Positions 38,524-61,948 of a stretch of DNA of 64,000 nucleotides are shown one piece after another. The notes beneath the pieces are model-generated. The model was not told the DNA's origin, ran no database searches, and was given only the letters and a program-made list of their open reading frames with translations. The stretch is from positions 1,983-65,982 of the forward strand of contig JBGPTH010000014.1 of NCBI GenBank assembly GCA_041490525.1, read 5' to 3'. Within the stretch, counting starts at the first letter, position 1, and each line of letters begins with the position of its first letter. Both the position numbers and the translations under genes were made by a program. The stretch is from Nitrospiria bacterium (lineage in GTDB: Bacteria > Nitrospirota > Nitrospiria > Nitrospirales > NS-4).

Positions 38524-38759
38524 CGCACACTCCTTCCATTAGGAAGTTTCGCGTCTGAAGTCCTAAATCGTGGAGTGTGCAAACTCCGCGCCGTTGCAAA
38601 GGGCGTGTAACTCTATGGAACGAAAGGGCCTGGTGTCAAGAACAGCCGGCCTATGACGGGGGACAGGTGTGTCATAAACCCTATTAGTGAAGGCTTTTTA
38701 ACGCTTCCAACGCTTCGATGTTGCTTAGGGTTTTGGTTTGCTGCGGAGGGCAGGAGGAG

Positions 38760-53521: not shown

Positions 53522-56500
53522 ATGAGCGGCGTGTCCCCAAGGCCTCTGGAGCTTGAGCAACTGTTGCGCCGGCGCATCGCGATTCTCGACGGCGCGATGG
53601 GCACGATGATCCAGGCGCGTCAGCTCGATGAGGCGGGCTTTCGGGGGCGGCAATTCGCCGACCACCCCACCGATCTGAAAGGGTGCAACGACCTCCTCTG
53701 CCTGACCCAGCCGGACATCATTGAGGAAATCCATCGCCAATATCTCGAATCGGGGGCGGACATCATCGAGACGAACACGTTCAACTCCACGGCGATCTCG
53801 ATGGCCGATTACAAGCTGGAGCCCGTGGTCTATGACCTGAACGTGGCCGGCGCCCAGGCCGCCCGTCGTGCGGTCGAGGCCGTCATGGCGAAGGACCCGT
53901 CCCGCCCGCGGTTCGTGGCCGGGGCGATGGGGCCCACGAACCGCACGGCGTCGATGTCGCCGGATGTCAACAACCCCGCCTTTCGGGCGGTCAGCTACGA
54001 CCAACTGGTCGCCGCCTATACCGAGCAGGTCCGGGGACTGCTGGACGGCGGGGTCGATCTCTTGTTGGCCGAGACGGTCTTTGACACGCTGAACCTCAAG
54101 GCCGCCCTCTTTGCCATCGATCAGTATTTTGAGACCCAGGGACGGCGCGTGCCCGTGATGGTCTCGGTCACCATCACGGACCGGAGCGGCCGGACGCTTT
54201 CCGGCCAGACCGTGGAGGCGTTCTGGAATTCGATCTCCCACATGCCGTTGCTGAGCGTCGGGATCAACTGCGCGCTCGGGGCGAAGCAGATGCGCCCCTA
54301 TATCGGGGAGCTGGCCTCGCTCGCGCCGGTGTACCTCAGTTGCTATCCCAATGCCGGCCTGCCCAACGCCTTCGGAGGGTTCGATGAAACCCCGGAGATC
54401 ATGGCCGCCGACCTCCTGGACTTCGCGTCGAACGGCTGGCTGAACATCGTCGGCGGATGCTGCGGGACGACCCCGGCCCATATCCGTGCCATCGCCGACG
54501 CCGTGCGCGACTGTCCCCCGCGAGTGCCGGTCACCCCCGAACCGTTTACCCGCCTGAGCGGGCTGGAACCGTTGACGATCCGCCCGGAGACCAACTTCGT
54601 CAACATCGGGGAACGCACGAACGTCACCGGGTCCCCCCAGTTCGCCAAACTGGTCCTGAACGCCGAGTACGAGGCCGCCCTGTCTATCGCGCGCCAACAA
54701 GTGGAGGGCGGTGCACAGATGATCGACGTGAACATGGACGAGGGCATGCTGGATTCGGCGGCGGCGATGGAGCAATTCCTGAAGTTGATCGCCTCCGAGC
54801 CGGACATCTCCCGGGTGCCGGTCGTGATCGACAGCTCCAACTGGGCGGTGATCGAGGCGGGGCTCAAGTGCGTCCAGGGCAAGCCGGTCGTGAACTCGAT
54901 CAGCCTGAAGGAAGGGGAGGAGGCGTTCACACGCCGCGCCCGGTTGATCCGGCGGTACGGCGCGGCGGTCGTGGTCATGGCCTTCGATGAAGCGGGGCAG
55001 GCCGACCGGGTGGAACGCAAGGTCGAGATCTGCACGCGGGCGTACCGGATCTTGACCGAGGAGGTGGGGGTTCCACCACAGGACATTATTTTCGATCCCA
55101 ACGTGCTGACCGTCGCCACGGGCATCGAGGAGCACAACACGTACGCGGTGGATTTCATCGAGGCCGTCCGCCGGATCAAGGCCACGCTGCCTCACTGCAA
55201 GGTCAGCGGGGGCATCAGCAATATTTCCTTCTCCTTTCGCGGCAACCACGCGGTCCGCGAGGCGATGCACTCCGCCTTTCTCTATCATGCGATCCGGGCC
55301 GGGCTGGACATGGGCATCGTCAACGCCGGTCAGCTCGCCGTGTACGAAGAGATCCCCAAAGACCTGCTGGAGCTGGTCGAAGACGTCCTGTTGAACCGGC
55401 GCCCGGACGCCACCGAGCGGCTGGTGGCCTTTGCCGAGACCGTCAGGCAGCAGGGCAGAGTTGCCGTGCAGGAGGATGCCTGGCGGGCGGGCACGGTCGA
55501 GGAGCGTCTGTCGCACGCCCTGGTCAAAGGCGTGGTGGAGCACATCGAGGCGGACGTGGAGGAGGCCCGCCGGAAGTACGCCAAGCCTCTGGAGGTGATC
55601 GAAGGCCCCTTGATGGCGGGCATGAACATCGTGGGGGACCTGTTCGGCTCCGGCAAGATGTTTTTGCCCCAGGTCGTCAAGAGCGCGCGCGTGATGAAAA
55701 AGGCGGTGGCTTATCTGTTGCCCTTCATGGAGGAAGAAAAAAAGACCTCCGGCATCAGCCGGGCCCAGGGGAAAATCCTGATGGCCACCGTGAAGGGGGA
55801 CGTGCACGACATCGGGAAGAACATCGTCGGGGTGGTGCTCGGGTGCAACAACTATGAGGTGATCGATCTGGGGGTGATGGTCCCCTGCGACAAGATCCTC
55901 GCGACCGCCCGCGACCGCCAGGTGGACCTGATCGGGCTCAGTGGCCTGATCACCCCCTCGCTGGAGGAGATGGTGCACGTGGCGCGGGAAATGGCGCGGG
56001 AGGGAGTGCAGGTCCCGCTTCTGATCGGCGGGGCCACCACGAGCAAGGCCCATACGGCCGTGAAGATCGCGCCCGCGTACGCGCAGCCGGTGGTCCACGT
56101 GTTGGACGCCTCGAGGGCGGTGGGGGTGGTCAGCCGCCTCCTCAGTCCGGACCAGAAGGCGCCGTTCGCCGAACAAAACCGGCTTGACCAGGAGCGAGTC
56201 CGGCACGCGCACAAGGAGCGCGGGGAGAAGGTCTTGCTCACGTTGGCCGAGGCGCGTGAGCGGAGAACGCCGATCGAGTGGCGAGCCGCCGACATCCCGA
56301 AACCGGCCTTCACCGGCATTCGGGTCCTGGAATCGTGTCCGCTGGGTGAGATTGTCCCGTTCATTGACTGGTCGCCGTTCTTTCACACGTGGGAGCTGCG
56401 CGGGCGCTATCCCAAGATCCTGGAGGACGCGACCGTCGGCCCGAAGGCCAAGGAGCTGTTCGACGACGCACAGGCGCTGCTCAACGAGATCGTGCGCGGC

Positions 56501-57217
56501 AAGCTGCTCACGGCGCGCGGCGTGTACGGTTTCTTCCCGGCGAACAGCGTCGGCGACGACATCGAAGTGTACCGCGACGAGTCGCGCACGTCGGTGCGGA
56601 TGGTGTTCCATACACTCCGCCAGCAGACGCCGAAGCCGGAGGGGCAGTTCAATCAGGCGCTGGCCGATTTCATCGCGCCGAAGTCCACGGGACTTCCGGA
56701 CTACCTCGGCGCGTTCGCGGTCACGAGCGGCATCGGGCTTGAGAAGATCTGCGCGCGCTTCGAGAAGGAGCACGACGACTACAACTCGATCATGGCAAAG
56801 GCGCTGGCGGACCGGCTGGCGGAGGCCTTTGCCGAGCTGTTGCACAAGAAGGCGCGGGAGGAATGGGGCTACGGCGCGGCGGAGGGGCTCGGCCACGAAG
56901 ACCTGATCCGGGAACGCTACCGGGGCATTCGCCCGGCCCCCGGGTACCCGGCCTGTCCGGACCACACCGAGAAGCGCACCTTCTTCGATCTGCTACACGC
57001 GGAGAAGAACGCGGGCATCACCTTGACTGAAACCTTCGCGATGCTTCCGGCCAGCTCGGTCAGTGGATTGTATTTCGCGCATCCCGACGCGAAGTACTTT
57101 GCGGTGGGCAAGCTCGCCCGAGACCAGGTCCTGGACTATGCGCGGCGTAAACAAATGGACGTGGGCGCGATCGAGCGCTGGCTCGCCCCCAATCTGAATT
57201 ACGAGCCGGAGCGGTAA
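53522..57217 (+). CDS. metH: Cobalamin-dependent methionine synthase
   Basis: [62 protein letters not shown]. Confidence 0.98.
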
Positions 57218-57256
57218 GGTGTCTGGCGCCCGGAGGTGTCTTGCTCGATTATCTGA

Positions 57257-57301
57257 GGTGTCTGGCTCAATTTTTCTTCCGAGAAAAATGTGCCTGACAC
57301 C
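57257..57301. repeat. REP-like imperfect palindrome E1
   Basis: GGTGTCTGGCTCAATTTTTCT-TCCG-AGAAAAATGTGCCTGACACC; GGTGTCTGGC also at 57218, directly after the metH stop. Confidence 0.7.
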
Positions 57302-57373
57302 GGGTTTGCTATGCGTCCATCTAGCCACGGGGGATCCGAGGCATCACCTATGAGACACCGCGACGAGGGGAAA

Positions 57374-57406
57374 GGACTAAACAAGGTAACCTGTCCCCTT
57401 TTTCTG
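57374..57406. repeat. REP-like half element E2, a direct repeat of the right arm of E3
   Basis: GGACTAAACAAGGTAACCTGTCCCCTTTTTCTG vs GGACCAAACAAAGTAGCCTGTCCTCTTTTCTG (57784..57815). Confidence 0.65.
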
Positions 57407-57454
57407 GCCGCCAAAATGCCTGCTGAAGCCTAAGCACAGCAAGTCGAGTGATCA

Positions 57455-57724
57455 ATGATGTGGAAAACACTTGGAGAAGCAGCATTCTATTTTGGCTTTG
57501 GGAGCCTGCTGCTTGGTTTTCGTAAGGCCATGACCCCTTCTCGAGAATCTGAGGATAATACCCGACAAATCTTCTGGTGGACCATCAAAGTGTCGCGATG
57601 GGAGCAACGCTATAACTACTACCTTGCAAACTTCATCATCCTGGCGACGGCCAGCGTCGCATTCTTCTTTGGCCTGGTCACACTCTATGCCCTGATTACG
57701 GGCCAGCCGTCGCCTATACGCTAA
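57455..57724 (+). CDS. Small two-TM hypothetical protein
   Basis: Two hydrophobic segments; lies between E2 and E3. Confidence 0.6.
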   Translation: MMWKTLGEAAFYFGFGSLLLGFRKAMTPSRESEDNTRQIFWWTIKVSRWEQRYNYYLANFIILATASVAFFFGLVTLYALITGQPSPIR

Positions 57725-57745
57725 GAATTAAGTGAGGAGTGCGTT

Positions 57746-57815
57746 CAGAAAAAGGGAAAGGCTACCTTCTTTACGGCGTGAGAGGACCAAACAAAGTAGC
57801 CTGTCCTCTTTTCTG
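57746..57815. repeat. REP-like palindrome E3
   Basis: Arms CAGAAAAAGGGAAAGGCTAC / GTAGCCTGTCCTCTTTTCTG, 17/20 complementary. Confidence 0.7.
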
Positions 57816-57826
57816 CTGCCGGGTAA

Positions 57827-58552
57827 ATGATGCCAGATAAAGCAACGCTTGGTGCGAGCGGAGGAGCACCTGAAGATCGGACGGCCATCCTCCGCCGAAG
57901 ACCGGCTCGGACCAGGATACGAATTCTCAACGTTCGGAAAATTTTCCCTCCGGATGACGAGCTTGCAACAATCATCGCTCGCTTATGCATTCTGAGGGAA
58001 GATCTATCTCTTGAAATCCATGGCATTGTCTTTGATCCAATGGAGTTCCTAGACAGGAATTCGATCCCATGGCGGCACAACTACTTCTTCAGGAATTCGG
58101 TCAGGACGCTGATGGAGATCAGGGGAGCGCTACAAACCTTGAACTGCAATGTGGAATTCAAGCGGATCCTTAAAAGGTGTGAACCTAAAGCGCAAGAGTA
58201 TTTCAAAGAATTTTGTAAGCGCATTAACGAGGCCCATGGACTTATTGAGGAAGTACGAAACAGCATTGGGGCACACGTCAAGCACAATGCTGTTGGACGG
58301 GGTCTGAAGTCGGTTCCCTTCGAAAGAACTGGAGTCTGGGAAGAGTCGCAGGATTTTATCCATACACATCATCGTTTTTCGAATGAATTGTTTATTGCCA
58401 TCTTGCAGGGAGGGGATCGTCCTTATGATGTTCCAGACAAGGACATAACGGAAGTCCTAGAAATGACAGGGACCATGGCTCGCCTGACAGAGGCCATTCC
58501 GCTCATTGATATGCTATTTAGGCTTTACCTTCATGAAAGGCATCTGCTCTAA
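57827..58552 (+). CDS. Hypothetical protein with HEPN-like R-x5-H motif
   Basis: EVRNSIGAH in a helical protein; foreign composition. Confidence 0.6.
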   Translation: MMPDKATLGASGGAPEDRTAILRRRPARTRIRILNVRKIFPPDDELATIIARLCILREDLSLEIHGIVFDPMEFLDRNSIPWRHNYFFRNSVRTLMEIRGALQTLNCNVEFKRILKRCEPKAQEYFKEFCKRINEAHGLIEEVRNSIGAHVKHNAVGRGLKSVPFERTGVWEESQDFIHTHHRFSNELFIAILQGGDRPYDVPDKDITEVLEMTGTMARLTEAIPLIDMLFRLYLHERHLL

Positions 58553-58570
58553 TCCGTACAAAGAAGGTCA

Positions 58571-58617
58571 GGGCAGGTCTTGCAATCATCCATCGTCGTA
58601 ATGCAAGACGTCACTCC
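58571..58617. repeat. REP-like palindrome E4
   Basis: GGGCAGGTCTTGCAAT...ATGCAAGACGTCACTCC with perfect GTCTTGCA/TGCAAGAC stem. Confidence 0.65.
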
Positions 58618-58674
58618 GAGAAGTTTCCATGGTTCCATCTTCTTTGCCTACAACGGTAGCTTCCGAGGCACTGC

Positions 58675-59652
58675 ATGATCATCGCTATTGATGAATCAGG
58701 GTCTTTTGCACCGGACGCAAAGGAGCGACACTTCTTTTCTGCGATTCACCTCCGTCAGCGGAGGACGTTCTACAAACTGAAAGAGCGACAATTTACAGAC
58801 TGGGAGATGTCGTTGCCTCGAACTCTGAAGAACGCAAAGGGAGAAATTAAAAGTTCTAGTTTGTCCGATGATCAACTATCGGAGTTTGCGCGCGTTGTTC
58901 TTTGCGGCCAACACTATGTGGGTGTGACACCATTTGCGATTAATCCAACCGATAATCCTAAATCGGTCGTTGAAAAGCATCGCGCAGTCGCCTTGGTTGG
59001 TATTCAGGAGGGGGTAAAAGGCTATACCGCTCAGGGAAAGAAAAAATTAGCAGCTGTTTATCAGGACTTTGGGAATTGGCTACAAAGACTAAGCTATTCG
59101 CAGTTCCTTAAGATTGTATTACTCGGTTCGTGCCTGTCCTCGGCGATCGTAAACACAATGGGGCATGCGATCTCTGGAGGGCATGATGAAGAGCTGATGC
59201 GAATGGAATTTCTTATCGACCGGGATTTCATAAAAGAACCGAGACACCAATTTTTTTGGCGTAACATTTGGCGTAATCAGCTTTACCACGCCAGTAAATT
59301 AAATCCTTTCCCGATGTTAGAGAAGTGGAAGGAGAAGGGCCATCCCTTTTTGACGAAATATATGCGGGAGGGCCATCTGGATTTCAGTGATCTTTTCTCT
59401 AATCACCTCAGGTTCGTTCAATCGCATGCGTATTTCGAGATACGGATAGCCGACGCCGTAAATACCATCCTTTTTCGCTTTTTCAATCAACGGCGGTGTG
59501 CCCTCGCATACAAGTATCTTCGCAGCTGCATTCTGTATGATGGAAAGGTCCATCAGATACTCTTGAGAGACTTTGATCTTGATGCCTGGCGCTATGACCC
59601 CGACGCAAATCCTTGGGGGAAGTTTCCGAGTTCTTCAGAGAAGGTCATGTAA
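58675..59652 (+). CDS. DUF3800-like (RNase H-fold) protein
   Basis: N-terminal IAIDESG, EIK, FLIDR, C-terminal IRIAD motifs. Confidence 0.7.
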   Translation: MIIAIDESGSFAPDAKERHFFSAIHLRQRRTFYKLKERQFTDWEMSLPRTLKNAKGEIKSSSLSDDQLSEFARVVLCGQHYVGVTPFAINPTDNPKSVVEKHRAVALVGIQEGVKGYTAQGKKKLAAVYQDFGNWLQRLSYSQFLKIVLLGSCLSSAIVNTMGHAISGGHDEELMRMEFLIDRDFIKEPRHQFFWRNIWRNQLYHASKLNPFPMLEKWKEKGHPFLTKYMREGHLDFSDLFSNHLRFVQSHAYFEIRIADAVNTILFRFFNQRRCALAYKYLRSCILYDGKVHQILLRDFDLDAWRYDPDANPWGKFPSSSEKVM

Positions 59653-59711
59653 GGGAATTGTGAAATTAATCTGGGTTGGAGTTGACTGTTCAGCCCGCCT
59701 AAAACAAACGT

Positions 59712-59812
59712 GGCGTCAGTCACCGTTTTCCGATTCGCAAGCAAACAGATAATGAAAACGGTGACAGACCCCGACCTATGACTCCTCGGAGAAAACGGTA
59801 ACAGACACCGTT
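59712..59812. repeat. REP-like palindrome E5 plus tandem copy of its right arm
   Basis: GTCACCGTTTTC (59719..59730) / GAAAACGGTGAC (59754..59765) perfect 12 bp; GAAAACGGTAACAGACACCG repeated at ~59791; related half site GGTGTCAGTCACCGT at 60183..60197. Confidence 0.7.
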
Positions 59813-59817
59813 CCTCG

Positions 59818-59869
59818 CTACGGCTGCTTGTCGGTCTTCAGTTGAACGACCTGCTGCGGGTAGGGCATC
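59818..59869 (-). pseudogene. Relic copy of the mscS 3' end (MPYPQQVVQLKTDKQP-stop)
   Basis: 59826..59869 matches 60907..60950 at 43/44 nt. Confidence 0.85.
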
Positions 59870-59878
59870 CGGCGGAGG

Positions 59879-60109
59879 TCATTTTAGCTTGGAGCGGGCG
59901 TCGTCAAAAACCTGAGCAGCGGGTTTGGGAGCGAGTGTCCCTCGTCGGTAGTCCTGATAGCGGCGCTCGGCCTCTTGCAGCCATAGCTCTTCCGCCTCCA
60001 CATCCTCACCGATGTCCAGGCTGGCGATCAGACTGTGCGCGAGATGGGCGCGGTCAGCCGCGGGGAGTTGTTTGGCCTCCTGTTCAAGCTGTGATAATGC
60101 TTTTCCCAT
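59879..60109 (-). CDS. Addiction-module antitoxin component (TIGR02574-like), cognate toxin missing
   Basis: GAGGAGA SD; A..LP..DRA.LA..L..SL.....W..EAERR...Y..G. Confidence 0.8.
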   Translation of the reverse strand: MGKALSQLEQEAKQLPAADRAHLAHSLIASLDIGEDVEAEELWLQEAERRYQDYRRGTLAPKPAAQVFDDARSKLK

Positions 60110-60244
60110 GGTCTCTCCTCTATGGCTGGCGACATTCTGACTGTACTCGTCCAGCCATGAATTTTCAATATCCATTGAAACTGGTGTCAGTCACCGTCGG
60201 ATTTTTTGCTTGACTTGTGAAGTAGGAATTCATACCATGATGGT

Positions 60245-60475
60245 ATGAAAACCGTGGTTTCGGAAAAGGGGCAGGTGACGATCCCCAAGCCGATCCGTGA
60301 TCGCCTGGGCATTCGGGCGGGCCAAGCCTTGGATTTCCGTGCGGAGCAGGGGCAGTTGGTGGCGACCAAGATCACGCCTCAGGACGCAGTCGAGAGCGTG
60401 TACGGGATACTTAAGCTTGGACGGCCGACGGATGCGGTGATGAAAACGTTGCGCGGGACGGCCGGCGCGAGGTGA
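60245..60475 (+). CDS. AbrB/MazE-fold antitoxin
   Basis: VSEKGQVTIPK.IR..LGI..G..L.F. Confidence 0.9.
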   Translation: MKTVVSEKGQVTIPKPIRDRLGIRAGQALDFRAEQGQLVATKITPQDAVESVYGILKLGRPTDAVMKTLRGTAGAR

Positions 60476-60882
60476 TCACGGCAGTCGACACGAGCGTCCT
60501 GCTCGACATTTTCGGCGCCGATCCTGCCTTCGGGAGTCGCTCCAAAGCGGCTCTGCGTTCCTGTATCAGCGAAGGCGGCCTGATTGCCTGCGAGGTCGTA
60601 TGGGCGGAGGTGGCAGGCCTCTTTCCAACATCCGAGGCCGCCCAAGACGCCATGAGGCGTTTAAGCGTGGAATTCAGCGCTATCGAAATCGAAACGGCGC
60701 TGGCAGCCGGCGCGTCCTGGAAGAAGTATCGGGATCGGGGTGGACGGCGGAATCGGGTGGCGGCTGATTTCTTGATCGGCGCGCATGCGTTGTTGCAAGC
60801 CAATCGGCTGTTGACGCGGGATCGTGGATTCTATCGGGCCTATTTTTCCTCCCTGAAGGTGGTCGACTCTTCAAAAGCCTGA
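60472..60882 (+). CDS. vapC: PIN-domain (VapC) toxin
   Basis: AVDTSVL.D, VVWAEV, ADF.IGAHA, LLTRD; GTGA overlap with the antitoxin stop. Confidence 0.9.
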   Translation: MITAVDTSVLLDIFGADPAFGSRSKAALRSCISEGGLIACEVVWAEVAGLFPTSEAAQDAMRRLSVEFSAIEIETALAAGASWKKYRDRGGRRNRVAADFLIGAHALLQANRLLTRDRGFYRAYFSSLKVVDSSKA

Positions 60883-60889
60883 AGAGGCT

Positions 60890-61948
60890 CTATATCTGTT
60901 CGGTCGGCTTGTCGGTCTTCAGTTGAACGACTTGCTGCGGGTAGGGCATCTCGATCTGTTCGTCCTTGAACCGTTTCAGAATGCGCTTGCGGAGCTCGTG
61001 CTGGACCAGTCCCTGGTCCTCGAATTCCCGGACATGGACGCCCAGGGTGAAGTCCAGCGACGACGCGCCGAAGCCGGGAATGAGCCTGACGGCGGGCGCC
61101 GGCTCCGCCAAAAGCCCCGGCACCTGGCCCACGGCTTTCTGGGCCTCCTCGAGCAGCACCCGTTCGACGCGGTCCGGATCGGTCCCGTACGACACGCTGA
61201 CGGTGAGGGACACGGCCATGCGCGGGTCGGGGAGGAAGTAGTTGGTCAGGATGGACTGCGTCAGCTTGTTGTTGGGGATGATCACCAGATTGTTGGGAAG
61301 CATGCGGATCCGCGTCGTGCGCCACCCGATGTCCACGATGTAGCCCTCCTGGCCCGTTTCGAGCTTCACGAAGTCGCCGATCCGCACCGGCTTCTCGATC
61401 AAGAGATGAATGCCGGCGAAGAAGTTGGACAGGGTGTCCTGCAGGGCCAGCGCGACCGCCAGCCCGCCCACGCCCAAGGCGGTGAGAATCGGCGCGATCG
61501 AGACCCCCAGGCCGCTCAGGAGCACCAGCCCGCCGACGATCCAGATCGTCACCTTGATGATCGTGATGGAAAGCCCGGTGGCCGGGAGCGCCAGATTGTT
61601 CTTCCGGAGCGTGTCCCACAGGGTTGACGCCGCCACGTTCGCCAGCGCGGCCGTCGCCGAGACCACCAACAGCGCGTACACGATGCTGAGCGCAGCGGCC
61701 CCGGGGCGCGGCGGCAGGGGCGCGAGATCGAGCGCGACGTACAGGCCGATCAGCACGCACCAGACGGCCGAGGGAAGGCGGAGGCTCCGCACGAGGACAT
61801 CGTCGAGCCGGGTCGGCGTGCGCGCGGCCCAGCGGTAGAGCGCGCGGAGCGCGAGGTGACGAAAGCCGAGCGCCAAGCCGGTGACGACGGCGAAGGCGGC
61901 CAGGCCCTTGAGGGCGGTGATGACTTCGGCGGATAAGCTCTTCATCAT
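60890..61948 (-). CDS. mscS: Small-conductance mechanosensitive channel family protein
   Basis: GVGGLAVALALQDTLSNFFAGI, P.RIGD, IG.R.T.IR, IPN. Confidence 0.92.
   Translation of the reverse strand: MMKSLSAEVITALKGLAAFAVVTGLALGFRHLALRALYRWAARTPTRLDDVLVRSLRLPSAVWCVLIGLYVALDLAPLPPRPGAAALSIVYALLVVSATAALANVAASTLWDTLRKNNLALPATGLSITIIKVTIWIVGGLVLLSGLGVSIAPILTALGVGGLAVALALQDTLSNFFAGIHLLIEKPVRIGDFVKLETGQEGYIVDIGWRTTRIRMLPNNLVIIPNNKLTQSILTNYFLPDPRMAVSLTVSVSYGTDPDRVERVLLEEAQKAVGQVPGLLAEPAPAVRLIPGFGASSLDFTLGVHVREFEDQGLVQHELRKRILKRFKDEQIEMPYPQQVVQLKTDKPTEQI

What the first reader, a model, noticed from the sequence alone, without database searches (positions are those of the whole stretch)
57218..60244. 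Island 2: single-gene modules each delimited by related REP-like palindromes
Seen: from the base after the metH stop, every intergenic gap holds a palindrome or half-palindrome ending in a GG(T/G)G(T/A)C(A/T)G-like motif: E1 57257-57301, E2 57374-57406, E3 57746-57815, E4 58571-58617, E5 59712-59812, E6 60183-60197. One foreign gene sits between most successive elements (TM protein, HEPN-like, DUF3800, antitoxin); E1-E2 enclose no ORF. A similar GGGGACAGG half site occurs at 38659 in island 1. Established: such palindromes resemble REPs processed by Y1 HUH (RAYT) transposases. Inference: an integron-like but integrase-independent gene-capture array in which REP hairpins act as cassette boundaries for defence genes. 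This is the best candidate for an undescribed system in the window.
Basis: partly seen in the sequence, partly recalled or inferred. Interest (0 to 1): 0.75.

Follow-up and report, generated by a model that had tools for sequence, protein, structure and literature searches.

The report
REP hairpins in a gene-gain hotspot
The palindromes between the foreign genes after metH are a known kind of small mobile hairpin repeat (REP/REPIN) that depends on a single helper transposase, here first seen in uncultured Nitrospira relatives; they crowd into gene-gain hotspots, but I found no evidence that they capture the genes.

Summary
The stretch after metH is a low-GC island (45-52% against 65%), and five of its six intergenic gaps hold members of genome-wide repeat families that share a GGKGWCWG core. 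Only E1 and E5 are strong hairpins. E3 is a decayed one, E2 and E6 are single half-sites, and E4 belongs to a different repeat.

The repeats are REP/REPIN (BIME-like) elements. The genome has one RAYT-type Y1 transposase, flanked by the same half-sites. In sister genera the RAYT genes are flanked by inverted copies of the E2/E3-type repeat.

The "integrase-independent integron" reading is not supported:
- There is no integron integrase and there are no attC boxes.
- The antitoxin-VapBC module is bounded by a 44-nt duplication of the mscS 3' end, not by hairpins.
- Relatives carry cargo after metH without hairpins, and one carries a REPIN there without cargo.
- 80% of the low-GC segments in this genome have no REP.

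What remains notable is a 3.8-fold enrichment of REPs in low-GC DNA, the opposite of the Pseudomonas "REP deserts". The asymmetric hairpin also has a fixed polarity: native gene stop codon, then hairpin, then foreign DNA.

Verdict: a new member of a known kind. An active role in gene capture is unproven.

The parts
53522..57217 (+). metH (B12-dependent methionine synthase). Native core gene that forms the left border of the hotspot.
   Evidence: Pfam Met_synt_B12, S-methyl_trans, Pterin_bind and B12-binding. Orthologues at 75-87% identity in 15 relatives.
57217..57244 (+). Two direct T-arm half-sites (AGGTGTCTGGC, AGGTGTCTTGC). The first starts at the last base of the metH stop codon.
   Evidence: Family D7; sequence read.
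57257..57301 (+). E1: class-A REPIN hairpin (GGTGTCTGGCTC...GTGCCTGACACC), canonical orientation +, with the A-arm facing the island.
   Evidence: dG -15.6 kcal/mol, z = -6.0. About 10 similar copies in the genome. The 42-nt form is nearly invariant in other Nitrospirales MAGs.
57363..57406 (+). E2: decayed class-B REP (GGTAACCTGTCCCCTTTT, carrying a GTAA variant of the GTAG tag).
   Evidence: 80% identical over 40 nt to the right arm of E3 (D4). Matches AGTAGCCTGTCCCCTTTT with 2 mismatches. No significant fold.
57455..57724 (+). 89-aa ORF, a putative membrane protein with no family match. Flanked by inward-facing class-B REPs.
   Evidence: I7. No paralogue in the genome.
57746..57815 (+). E3: decayed class-B REPIN (inverted REP doublet).
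   Evidence: 27-nt arms, 81% complementary (I2); z = -1.3. The same sequence flanks the RAYT gene of G014 (L011).
57827..58552 (+). 241-aa protein, probably HEPN-like (RNSIGAH = Rx5H).
   Evidence: No Pfam, NCBIfam or PADLOC hit. A paralogue at C8:65295-65948 (34% identity) gives a sub-threshold HEPN_AbiU2 hit, E 0.002. Only weak similarity (23% identity, E 0.011) to the 277-aa protein that follows metH in G004.
58566..58617 (+). E4: a diverged copy of a third repeat (class C, GGGTCAGGTCTTGCAAT...). Elsewhere this repeat sits just before class-A hairpins.
   Evidence: Six exact core copies elsewhere in the genome; three precede the hairpins of the C16 array. Raised word depth over the 234-nt bin that contains it in metagenomes. 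Weak fold, z = -1.3.
58675..59652 (+). 325-aa DUF3800-like protein. A widely mobile orphan gene.
   Evidence: Pfam DUF3800, E 0.009. 116 homologues in unrelated contexts. In L029 and L033 it sits between attC-like boxes. In L102 it is followed by a different REPIN.
59712..59812 (-). E5: class-A REPIN hairpin (59712-59772) plus one extra T-arm half-site (59791-59809). Canonical orientation is -, with the A-arm facing the island.
   Evidence: 19-nt arms, 89% complementary (I3). dG -20.7 kcal/mol, z = -3.4. Family of about 20 copies.
59818..59869 (-). Displaced original 3' end of mscS, including its stop codon at 59818-59820. It is a direct repeat of 60907-60950.
   Evidence: 44 nt, 43/44 identical, spacing 1081. 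Its tail matches the mscS end of G004 better than the current mscS tail does.
59879..60175 (-). Orphan antitoxin (Unstab_antitox / TIGR02574-like). Its toxin partner is deleted after the first two codons.
   Evidence: Pfam 3e-11. 87% nucleotide identity to G004, where a 96-aa gene in the toxin position follows it.
60183..60197 (+). E6: single class-A half-site (GGTGTCAGTCACCGT). It lies where homology with the G004 antitoxin module ends and the VapBC module begins.
   Evidence: 15/16 identical to the left arm of E5 (D19). The alignment with G004 stops about 15 nt before it. No fold of its own.
60245..60882 (+). VapB (MazE/AbrB-type antitoxin) and VapC (PIN toxin).
   Evidence: Pfam PF04014 and PF01850. 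Absent from the G004 locus.
60890..61948 (-). mscS. Native core gene that forms the right border. Its last codons (60890-60906) are new sequence brought by the inserted block.
   Evidence: Pfam MS_channel domains.

Best explanation
The palindromes are REP/REPIN-type repeats: inverted doublets of a 12-20-nt REP that fold as single-stranded DNA hairpins. They are partly arranged in BIME-like mosaics with tandem half-sites.

There are three sequence classes with a common core:
- Class A: GGBGTCWGKCWC.
- Class B: GTAGCCTGTCCCC.
- Class C: GGGTCAGGTCTTGC.

These are non-autonomous elements, presumably copied in trans by a single-copy, domesticated Y1 HUH transposase (RAYT / TnpA_REP). That copying step is inferred. 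Class A has its RAYT in this genome and shows identical copies, so the population looks active. Class B has no perfect copy here, and its matching RAYT is seen in another genus, so the population looks decaying.

The island itself is a core-flanked horizontal-transfer hotspot between the convergent native genes metH and mscS. Class-A hairpins sit a few bases after the stop codons of native genes in a fixed orientation, with the T-arm next to the stop. metH and the original mscS end therefore each carry one, and any DNA gained between them lies between two inward-pointing hairpins.

The further REPs inside the island are best read as secondary colonisation of permissive, non-essential intergenic DNA, or as relics that arrived with the cargo. 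How the genes were gained was not observed. Where it can be read (antitoxin-E6-VapBC), the pattern fits homology-facilitated illegitimate recombination anchored in mscS, not recombination at a hairpin.
For: REP-RAYT identity:
- One Y1_Tnp gene in a genome that is 99% complete.
- NCBIfam REP_Tyr_transpos, 77.5 bits.
- The only PDB hit is 4ER8, TnpA_REP, with the HUH motif (HFH) and the Tyr motif (RYILRNPV) aligned.
- The gene is flanked by inverted class-A half-sites.
- RAYT genes of G014, G001, G011 and G012 are flanked by 20-32-nt inverted repeats of the same core, and the G014 pair is the E2/E3 type. (A weaker 74%-complementary pair flanks the gene in G013.)

Repeat families:
- 104 half-sites against 7-50 in controls, and 45 hairpin pairs.
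- Class B has 20-40 copies per genome in genera g2 and g3, mostly as doublets. G000 has 23 copies, none perfect.
- The 42-nt class-A hairpin occurs in 12 family members. In the GTDB-wide scan it appears almost only in uncultured Nitrospirales.

Position rule:
- The T-arm lies 2-46 nt after the stop of a native co-directional gene in 11 of 24 hairpins in other genomes (a twelfth lies 144 nt after the stop) and within 200 nt in 8 of 28 in this genome.
- A native gene within 200 nt beyond the A-arm is seen in only 6 of 24 and 1 of 28.
- E1 starts at the metH stop. E5 follows the original mscS stop.

Hotspot:
- Content downstream of metH differs among six genera.
- Cargo is present without hairpins in G004, G005 and G016.
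- A REPIN is present without cargo in G007.

Boundary not at a hairpin:
- A 44-nt direct repeat of the mscS 3' end flanks the antitoxin-VapBC block.

Hairpins are not needed for gene gain:
- 131 of 164 low-GC segments have no REP.
Against: - REPs are 3.8-fold enriched in or next to low-GC DNA. Local GC around them is 0.576 against 0.622 for random intergenic sites. This is the reverse of the Pseudomonas pattern, where islands are REP deserts (PMC3390384). Pure passive colonisation does not obviously predict it.
- Two hairpins at the two ends of one island is unlikely if hairpins (about 1% of genes) and cargo were independent.
- At the orthologous DUF2784 site the hairpin is kept in two genera while the cargo beyond it differs.
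- At the C2 site, hairpin and cargo appear together between genes that are adjacent and hairpin-free in three other genera.
- E6 lies exactly at a homology breakpoint.
- Mobilisation by the RAYT is inferred. Co-occurrence of hairpins and Y1 genes across incomplete MAGs is untidy.
Confidence: 0.7

Rival explanations
1. Hairpin-dependent gene capture. The asymmetric REPIN hairpin just after a native stop codon is an oriented recombination or insertion site. Foreign single-gene modules are inserted on its A-arm side, or travel as hairpin + gene units, through single-stranded DNA chemistry of the RAYT or a host enzyme. This builds arrays without an integrase.
For: - Polarity: the 1 kb beyond the A-arm has lower GC than the 1 kb before the T-arm in 22 of 27 hairpins in this genome (p 0.0005). 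In an independent set from other genomes it is 15 of 19 (p 0.001).
- The DUF2784 site keeps the same hairpin with different cargo in two genera.
- At C2, hairpin and cargo appear together.
- The C16, C30 and C33 arrays have one hairpin cluster per TA or low-GC module, all in one orientation within each array.
- E6 lies at a breakpoint.
- A DUF3800 homologue in another organism is also followed by a REPIN, with the A-arm next to the gene.
Against: - The polarity is largely accounted for by the rule that hairpins sit next to native stop codons.
- Cargo occurs without hairpins at the same site in three genera, and a REPIN occurs without cargo in one.
- 80% of low-GC segments lack REPs.
- Cargo strand is not fixed: 15 + against 11 -.
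- In the 7-copy coiled-coil gene family the hairpin lies outside the conserved unit at a variable distance, and is absent from 2 of 7 copies.
- No alternative joints in metagenome contigs.
- The dated insertion is bounded by a gene-end duplication.
- In other Nitrospirales the hairpin is mostly solitary.
Confidence: 0.12
2. The hairpins are kept by selection as RNA- or DNA-level punctuation at native/foreign junctions: 3'-end stabilisers, terminators or insulators. Their mobility only supplies the raw material. Their concentration in islands reflects a need to stop read-through between native genes and acquired toxin or defence genes.
For: - Placement 2-14 nt after stop codons in many independent loci.
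- Strict conservation of stem mismatches and of the loop across genera.
- One element in nearly every gap of the island and of the TA arrays.
- REPs are reported to affect mRNA stability and termination in other bacteria (abstracts of PMC3479197 and PMC3733652).
Against: - No U-run follows the stem, and the hairpins are used in both orientations relative to neighbouring cargo genes.
- No RNA data exist for this organism.
- Sequence-level conservation of the loop and mismatches fits protein recognition better than a purely structural role.
- No Rfam family matches.
Confidence: 0.13
3. The array is a degenerate or atypical integron cassette array (CALIN), and the palindromes are attC sites.
For: - Short promoter-bearing TA and orphan genes separated by imperfect palindromes.
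- The DUF3800-like gene is a cassette between attC-like boxes (GCCTAAC...GTTAGGC) in two metagenome contigs.
Against: - No match reaches the integron-integrase cut-off: best 88.5 bits against 265.
- That best hit is an XerD-like gene beside tolQR, without the IntI insertion.
- The hairpins lack the R''/R' boxes RYYYAAC...GTTRRRY (sequence).
- E1 and E5 are inverted relative to each other.
- The same repeats flank RAYT genes.
Confidence: 0.02
4. The island, or each module, is a cargo-carrying IS200/IS605-type element (PATE) with left-end and right-end hairpins, mobilised as a unit by the Y1 transposase.
For: - Y1 transposase and subterminal-hairpin logic.
- Inward-pointing hairpins flank one low-GC gene at C6:74225-75741, and flank the window island.
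Against: - IS200/IS605 ends lie in the same orientation, and the tnpA gene is multi-copy. Here the hairpins are inverted, the Y1 gene is single-copy, and it sits in a REPtron arrangement.
- No second copy of any hairpin-gene-hairpin unit exists in the genome.
- Relative to the REPs that flank the RAYT gene, the cargo lies on the outer side.
Confidence: 0.03

Closest known systems
REP/REPIN-RAYT systems (TnpA_REP 'REPtrons'; Nunvar 2010 PMC2817692; Bertels & Rainey 2011 PMC3116915; Quentin 2018 PMC6006769), including BIME mosaics of E. coli
   Same: - A single-copy Y1 HUH transposase flanked by inverted REPs.
- REP doublets that form hairpins.
- Extragenic location, close to stop codons.
- Several REP classes in one genome.
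- Mosaic clusters with tandem units.
- A GT[AG]G 5' tag in class B.
- The protein motifs NHFH / WQ / YILRNP fit subclass 2.7 of Quentin et al.
   Different: - Low copy number: about 45 hairpins, and 8 or fewer in relatives, against hundreds.
- The host is an uncultured Nitrospirales family.
- The class-A hairpin is asymmetric, with conserved T.T and G.G mismatches and a fixed orientation relative to the upstream native gene.
- The REPs are enriched in low-GC accessory DNA, whereas in Pseudomonas the islands are REP deserts (PMC3390384).
- Tandem half-sites have an 18-nt period.
Core-flanked HGT hotspots and minimal mobile elements (Oliveira et al. 2017, PMC5635113; core defence hotspots, PMC10250203; Neisseria MMEs with dRS3/Correia repeats, from my own knowledge)
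   Same: - Different accessory, TA and defence-type genes sit between the same conserved genes in different lineages.
- No integrase is present.
- Small repeats are present in the intervals.
   Different: Turnover is shown here only between genera, not between strains. The exchange mechanism is not observed.
Integron cassette arrays with attC sites, and CALINs
   Same: Arrays of short genes, often TA, separated by imperfect palindromes that act as single strands. One cargo gene (DUF3800-like) is a true cassette elsewhere.
   Different: No IntI and no R/L boxes. The palindromes belong to a RAYT system, and cassette orientation is not uniform.
IS200/IS605 elements and their PATE derivatives
   Same: Y1 HUH enzyme; recognition of single-stranded DNA hairpins; no target duplication expected.
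   Different: The transposase is single-copy and domesticated. The hairpins are not paired as left and right ends in one orientation around a mobile unit.

Membership tests
REP/REPIN-RAYT (TnpA_REP) system | Y1 HUH transposase with an HUH motif and a catalytic-Tyr motif, typically one copy per REP class | tested here: met
   One PF01797 hit in a genome that is 99% complete. NF047646 scores 77.5 bits, just under the cut-off of 80. The only PDB hit is 4ER8, with HFH aligned to HMH and RYILRNPV aligned to DYIYINPV.
REP/REPIN-RAYT (TnpA_REP) system | The RAYT gene is flanked by its REPs in inverted orientation (REPtron) | tested here: met
   G000 C25: GGTGTCAGGCACC and GGTGTCAGACAC upstream, CTGACCCCTTTTTC downstream. 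G014, G001, G011 and G012: inverted repeats of 20-32 nt at 88-100% complementarity, spaced 674-707 nt apart around the gene.
REP/REPIN-RAYT (TnpA_REP) system | The same REPs are repeated in extragenic space, mostly as hairpin-forming doublets | tested here: met
   104 half-sites and 45 hairpin pairs. Class-B doublets occur across the family. Half of the elements fall outside an over-generous ORF cover that spans 90% of the genome. E1 and E5 have z = -6.0 and -3.4.
REP/REPIN-RAYT (TnpA_REP) system | A conserved 5' GT[AG]G guide tetranucleotide on the REP | tested here: inconclusive
   Class B carries GTAG (AGTAGCCTGTCCCC). Class A has GTGC, GTGA or GAGC at the equivalent place.
REP/REPIN-RAYT (TnpA_REP) system | The RAYT cleaves and rejoins its REP as single-stranded DNA | not testable with these tools
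   Needs biochemistry.
Integron / attC cassette array | An integron integrase (IntI) in the genome or next to the array | tested here: not met
   TIGR02249 best hit is 88.5 bits against a cut-off of 265. That gene is XerD-like, beside tolQR.
Integron / attC cassette array | attC with R''/R' boxes (RYYYAAC ... GTTRRRY) and uniform orientation | tested here: not met
   The boxes are absent from E1-E6 and from the genome-wide copies. E1 and E5 are inverted. Cargo strand is mixed.
IS200/IS605 / PATE | Left-end and right-end hairpins in the same orientation bound a unit that recurs at several loci | tested here: not met
   The flanking hairpins are inverted. No cargo unit recurs. tnpA is single-copy.
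Core-flanked HGT hotspot / minimal mobile element | Different genes between the same conserved flanking genes in related genomes | tested here: inconclusive
   Met at genus level on the metH side, and for the DUF2784 and C2 loci. Only G004 keeps both metH and mscS as flanks. No strain-level genomes are available, and metagenome contigs show one form only.

The most novel reading that the evidence does not exclude
The asymmetric class-A REPIN hairpin, parked a few bases after the stop codon of a native gene, is an oriented landing pad. Foreign single-gene modules (TA, HEPN-like, DUF3800, nuclease-like) would be inserted or exchanged on its A-arm side by single-stranded DNA chemistry of the RAYT or a host enzyme. 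This would give Nitrospirales an integrase-free, integron-like cassette system.
Probability: 0.1. Interest if true: 0.85.

Novelty: new member of a known kind. Interest (0 to 1): 0.35.

Why it matters
In the papers I searched, REPIN-RAYT systems were characterised mainly in Proteobacteria, and I found none describing them in Nitrospirota. This finding shows a family-wide set of such elements in uncultured relatives of nitrite-oxidising Nitrospira. One class looks active and one looks decaying, which suits tests of the REPIN-RAYT co-evolution ideas.

Two features differ from the textbook picture and can be tested. First, the REPs concentrate in low-GC accessory DNA rather than avoiding it. Second, the hairpin has a strict polarity: native stop codon, then T-arm, then A-arm, then foreign DNA. 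If that polarity reflected an active role in gene gain, it would be a new route of gene capture. As it stands, it mainly warns that repeat-delimited gene arrays can arise without the repeats doing the capturing.

Tried and rejected
- **Rfam.** A scan of 56500-61000 at E <= 1 found nothing.
- **Integron reading.** No IntI was found. The partial recombinase at the end of C18 is XerD-like.
- **Population variants.** Logan contigs of eight sediment metagenomes were laid on the region. Runs with good coverage show the island intact and identical. The few joints at 90% likeness have short sides. They are explained by the 44-nt mscS repeat or by other repeat copies.
- **RNA runs.** None are available.
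- **Co-occurrence of hairpins with Y1 genes across 41 genomes.** Ambiguous. Several incomplete MAGs have hairpins but no detected Y1. Nitrospiraceae have Y1 genes but not this hairpin.
- **Hairpin orientation against GC skew (replication direction).** No link, 8 of 24.
- **Hairpin orientation against cargo gene strand.** No rule, 15 against 11.
- **p241 + DUF3800 as a conserved two-gene system.** Rejected. The upstream neighbours of DUF3800 homologues are unrelated to each other.
- **Defining a REPIN insertion site.** I aligned the metH 3' spacers of G007, G002 and G017. They are too diverged.
- **Translating regions that contain stop codons through the family tool.** I used six frames with X at each stop for the C30 array only. 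The other arrays were not annotated by domain search.

Full report
**What is in the sequence**

The window is C14:1983-65982 of a 2.82-Mb, 62-contig genome with 62% GC. Earlier notes of this scan place it in an uncultured Nitrospirales family. The hairpin described below is found almost only in Nitrospirales MAGs, which agrees.

After the metH stop at 57217, GC falls from about 0.65 to 0.45-0.52 until about 59800.
- metH;
- an 89-aa ORF;
- a 241-aa protein without a family;
- a 325-aa weak DUF3800 match;
- an Unstab_antitox antitoxin on the minus strand;
- VapB and VapC;
- then mscS, archease and RtcB.

The repeats also exist, but they are of unequal quality. Folded as single-stranded DNA:
- E1 is a strong hairpin (z = -6.0).
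- E5 is a strong hairpin (z = -3.4).
- E3 is a decayed palindrome (z = -1.3).
- E2 and E6 are single half-sites.
- E4 is a diverged copy of a different repeat (GGGTCAGGTCTTGCAAT), which has six exact core copies elsewhere in the genome.

**More than chance, and genome-wide**

The half-site GGBGTCWGKCWC occurs 104 times, against 7-50 for twenty shuffled versions of the motif. Forty-five convergent pairs form hairpins. Many have extra direct half-sites on the outside:
- the GAGCCAGACCCC variant, at an 18-nt period;
- the GTGMCTGAC variant, at about 26 nt.

These are BIME-like mosaics. The elements cluster in about ten loci: C6 (two loci), C16, C20, C25, C30, C33, C49 and the window. They also lie near many contig ends.

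A second class, AGTAGCCTGTCCCCTTTT (the type of E2 and E3), has 23 copies with up to two mismatches in this genome, and none is perfect. Genomes of two sister genera hold 20-40 copies each, many of them perfect doublets.

**What they are**

- The genome has one Y1_Tnp gene.
- Its product scores 77.5 bits on NCBIfam 'REP-associated tyrosine transposase', just under the cut-off of 80.
- Its only relative among solved structures is E. coli TnpA_REP (4ER8), with the HUH and Tyr motifs aligned.
- Its motifs NHFH, WQ and YILRNP fit subclass 2.7 of Quentin et al. (PMC6006769).
- The gene is flanked by class-A half-sites in inverted orientation.
- In relatives, Y1 genes are flanked by 20-32-nt inverted repeats of the same core. 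The pair in G014, AGAAAAAGGGGACAGGCTACTTTGTTT, is the E2/E3 sequence.

This is the defining REPtron arrangement of REP-RAYT systems.

There is no integron integrase. The best candidate is an XerD-like gene beside tolQR. The hairpins have no attC boxes.

**Is it a capture array?**

I looked for breakpoints. Evidence against capture at hairpins:

- *The dated insertion.* The closest relative that keeps both flanks (G004, metH 86% identical) has metH, an unrelated-looking 277-aa gene, its own REPIN-like hairpin, a 96-aa gene in the toxin position with the antitoxin, and then mscS. In the window the toxin is gone. In its place lies a 52-nt copy of the original mscS 3' end with its stop codon. A 44-nt direct repeat (43/44 identical, spacing 1081) brackets antitoxin + E6 + VapBC. 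That block therefore entered with a crossover in mscS and an illegitimate join. It did not enter at a hairpin.
- *The same metH site in other genera.* G005 and G016 carry low-GC genes immediately after metH without any hairpin. G007 carries a class-B REPIN there with no cargo. Four other genomes have metH directly convergent with a transporter.
- *The genome as a whole.* Only 33 of 164 low-GC segments have a REP within 300 nt.
- *A recurring gene family.* In a 7-copy coiled-coil gene family, the hairpin lies outside the conserved promoter-gene unit, at a variable distance. It is missing from two copies.
- *DUF3800 homologues.* They sit in unrelated contexts. Two contigs show attC-like boxes around them.
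- *Population data.* Metagenome contigs from three well-covered samples show the island unchanged, with no alternative joints.

**What speaks for some link**

- REP sites are 3.8-fold enriched in or near low-GC DNA. Local GC around them is 0.576 against 0.622 for random intergenic positions. In Pseudomonas the reverse holds: REPs mark old core DNA and islands are REP deserts (PMC3390384).
- The class-A hairpin is asymmetric, with conserved T.T and G.G mismatches. Oriented from T-arm to A-arm, the kilobase beyond the A-arm has lower GC than the kilobase before the T-arm. This holds in 22 of 27 hairpins in this genome (p 0.0005) and in 15 of 19 hairpins from other Nitrospirales genomes (p 0.001).
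- Much of this polarity follows from position. The T-arm lies 2-46 nt after the stop codon of a native, co-directional gene in 11 of 24 foreign loci (a twelfth lies 144 nt after the stop), and within 200 nt in 8 of 28 loci of this genome. A native gene is rarely found within 200 nt beyond the A-arm.
- E1 begins at the metH stop, and E5 (minus strand) follows the original mscS stop. Two inward-pointing hairpins around the cargo are therefore what two convergent native genes with 3' REPINs would give.
- Orientation is not tied to GC skew or to cargo strand.
- Two orthologous comparisons keep the question open. After a DUF2784 gene, the hairpin sits 2 nt past the stop in G000 and, in degenerate form, in G018, with different cargo beyond it. 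After a 473-aa membrane gene, three genera have the next core gene adjacent with no hairpin, while G000 has a 597-nt insert with hairpin cluster + DUF2442 module.
- E6 lies at the point where homology with the G004 antitoxin module ends.

**Other arrays**

The C30 array consists of TA-type modules on one strand: DUF6883/DUF4926, a ParE-like gene with a partner, and a Cpn10-like gene. Each module is followed by a hairpin cluster. The C16 array has low-GC genes, each followed by the class-C repeat and a hairpin. So the window's pattern recurs in this genome. In other family members the hairpin is usually solitary, with eight or fewer copies per genome.

**Conclusion**

The elements are REP/REPIN repeats of a RAYT system, new for this lineage. 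The island is a core-flanked gene-gain hotspot. I put the passive/hotspot reading at about 0.7. An insulator or terminator role, which can coexist with it, I put at about 0.13. Hairpin-dependent capture I put at about 0.1. The integron and IS200-type readings are effectively excluded.

Mobilisation by the RAYT, the mechanism of gene gain, and any function of the hairpins are inferred, not shown.

Noticed in passing
window 59826-59869 and 60907-60950: A 44-nt direct repeat (43/44 identical) of the mscS 3' coding end brackets the orphan antitoxin, E6 and VapBC. The left copy keeps the original stop codon and resembles the G004 mscS end. The toxin partner present in G004 is deleted here after its first two codons. 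The pattern fits homology-facilitated illegitimate recombination.
   Followed up: yes
L029:2900-4030 and L033:2060-3609: Homologues of the DUF3800-like gene (62-67% identity) lie between attC-like boxes (GCCTAAC ... GTTAGGC, GTCTAAC ... GTTAGCG). In other organisms the gene therefore appears to be an integron cassette.
   Followed up: partly
L102:854-930: A homologue of the DUF3800-like gene at 80% identity, in a JGI contig, is followed 13 nt after its stop by a related REPIN (GGTGTCAGGAACC ... GGTTCCTGACACC). The same arm faces the gene as in E5.
   Followed up: partly
G000 C30:28500-32387 (L036): An array of TA-type modules (DUF6883/DUF4926, ParE-like, Cpn10-like). Each is preceded by the same promoter-like block (CTAGACGAATCCCGGCGGCCGGGTGTCTAAGATGGTG, three copies, found only here) and followed by a hairpin cluster with two to four tandem half-sites at an 18-nt period.
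   Followed up: partly
G000 C30:28838, C33:27134, C33:28482, C52:6005, C24:35638, C6:1320, C4:106240: A seven-copy family of 105-145-aa coiled-coil proteins (MDQELVQYLD...). It has a conserved TTGACA promoter block and a conserved 3' hairpin. Five copies lie 50-130 nt beyond a REPIN. No family was assigned.
   Followed up: partly
L047-L073 (other Nitrospirales MAGs): The 42-nt hairpin GGGGTCTGGCTCATTTTCTTCCGAGAAAATGTGCCTGACCCC is almost invariant across genera, including its loop and mismatches. It is followed by either CTTCYT or GTTTTC. In about half of the loci it starts within 7 nt after a stop codon (TAG, TAA or TGA).
   Followed up: partly
G000 genome-wide: All 23 class-B REP copies in this genome carry at least one mismatch, while sister genera have many perfect doublets. 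No class-B-flanked RAYT is seen here. This looks like a REPIN population decaying after loss of its RAYT.
   Followed up: partly
G000 C8:65295-65948: The only paralogue of the 241-aa island protein (34% identity). It has an RNTLGGH (Rx5H) motif and a sub-threshold HEPN_AbiU2 match, and it also lies between class-A and class-B REPs.
   Followed up: partly
G000 C6:74225-75741 (L040:3826-5341): One 308-aa gene with GC 0.47 and weak similarity to type II restriction enzymes (PADLOC, E 1e-6). It sits between two inward-pointing class-A hairpins, between a DUF2784 gene and a VOC gene.
   Followed up: partly
G000 C30:32250-32387 and C33:31140-31277: Both contigs end in the same sequence, which encodes METVVRPVQNGRGGRRRWNAEQKLAVLQEW. 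This is probably the start of a multi-copy insertion sequence that breaks the assembly next to the arrays.
   Followed up: no
L019:975-1065 (G004): Between the 277-aa gene and the 96-aa gene in the toxin position lies a hairpin of yet another REP variant (AAAAAGTGGGGGCAGAGTCC ... GGACTCTGCCCACACTTTTT). It is close to the repeats that flank the RAYT of G012.
   Followed up: no
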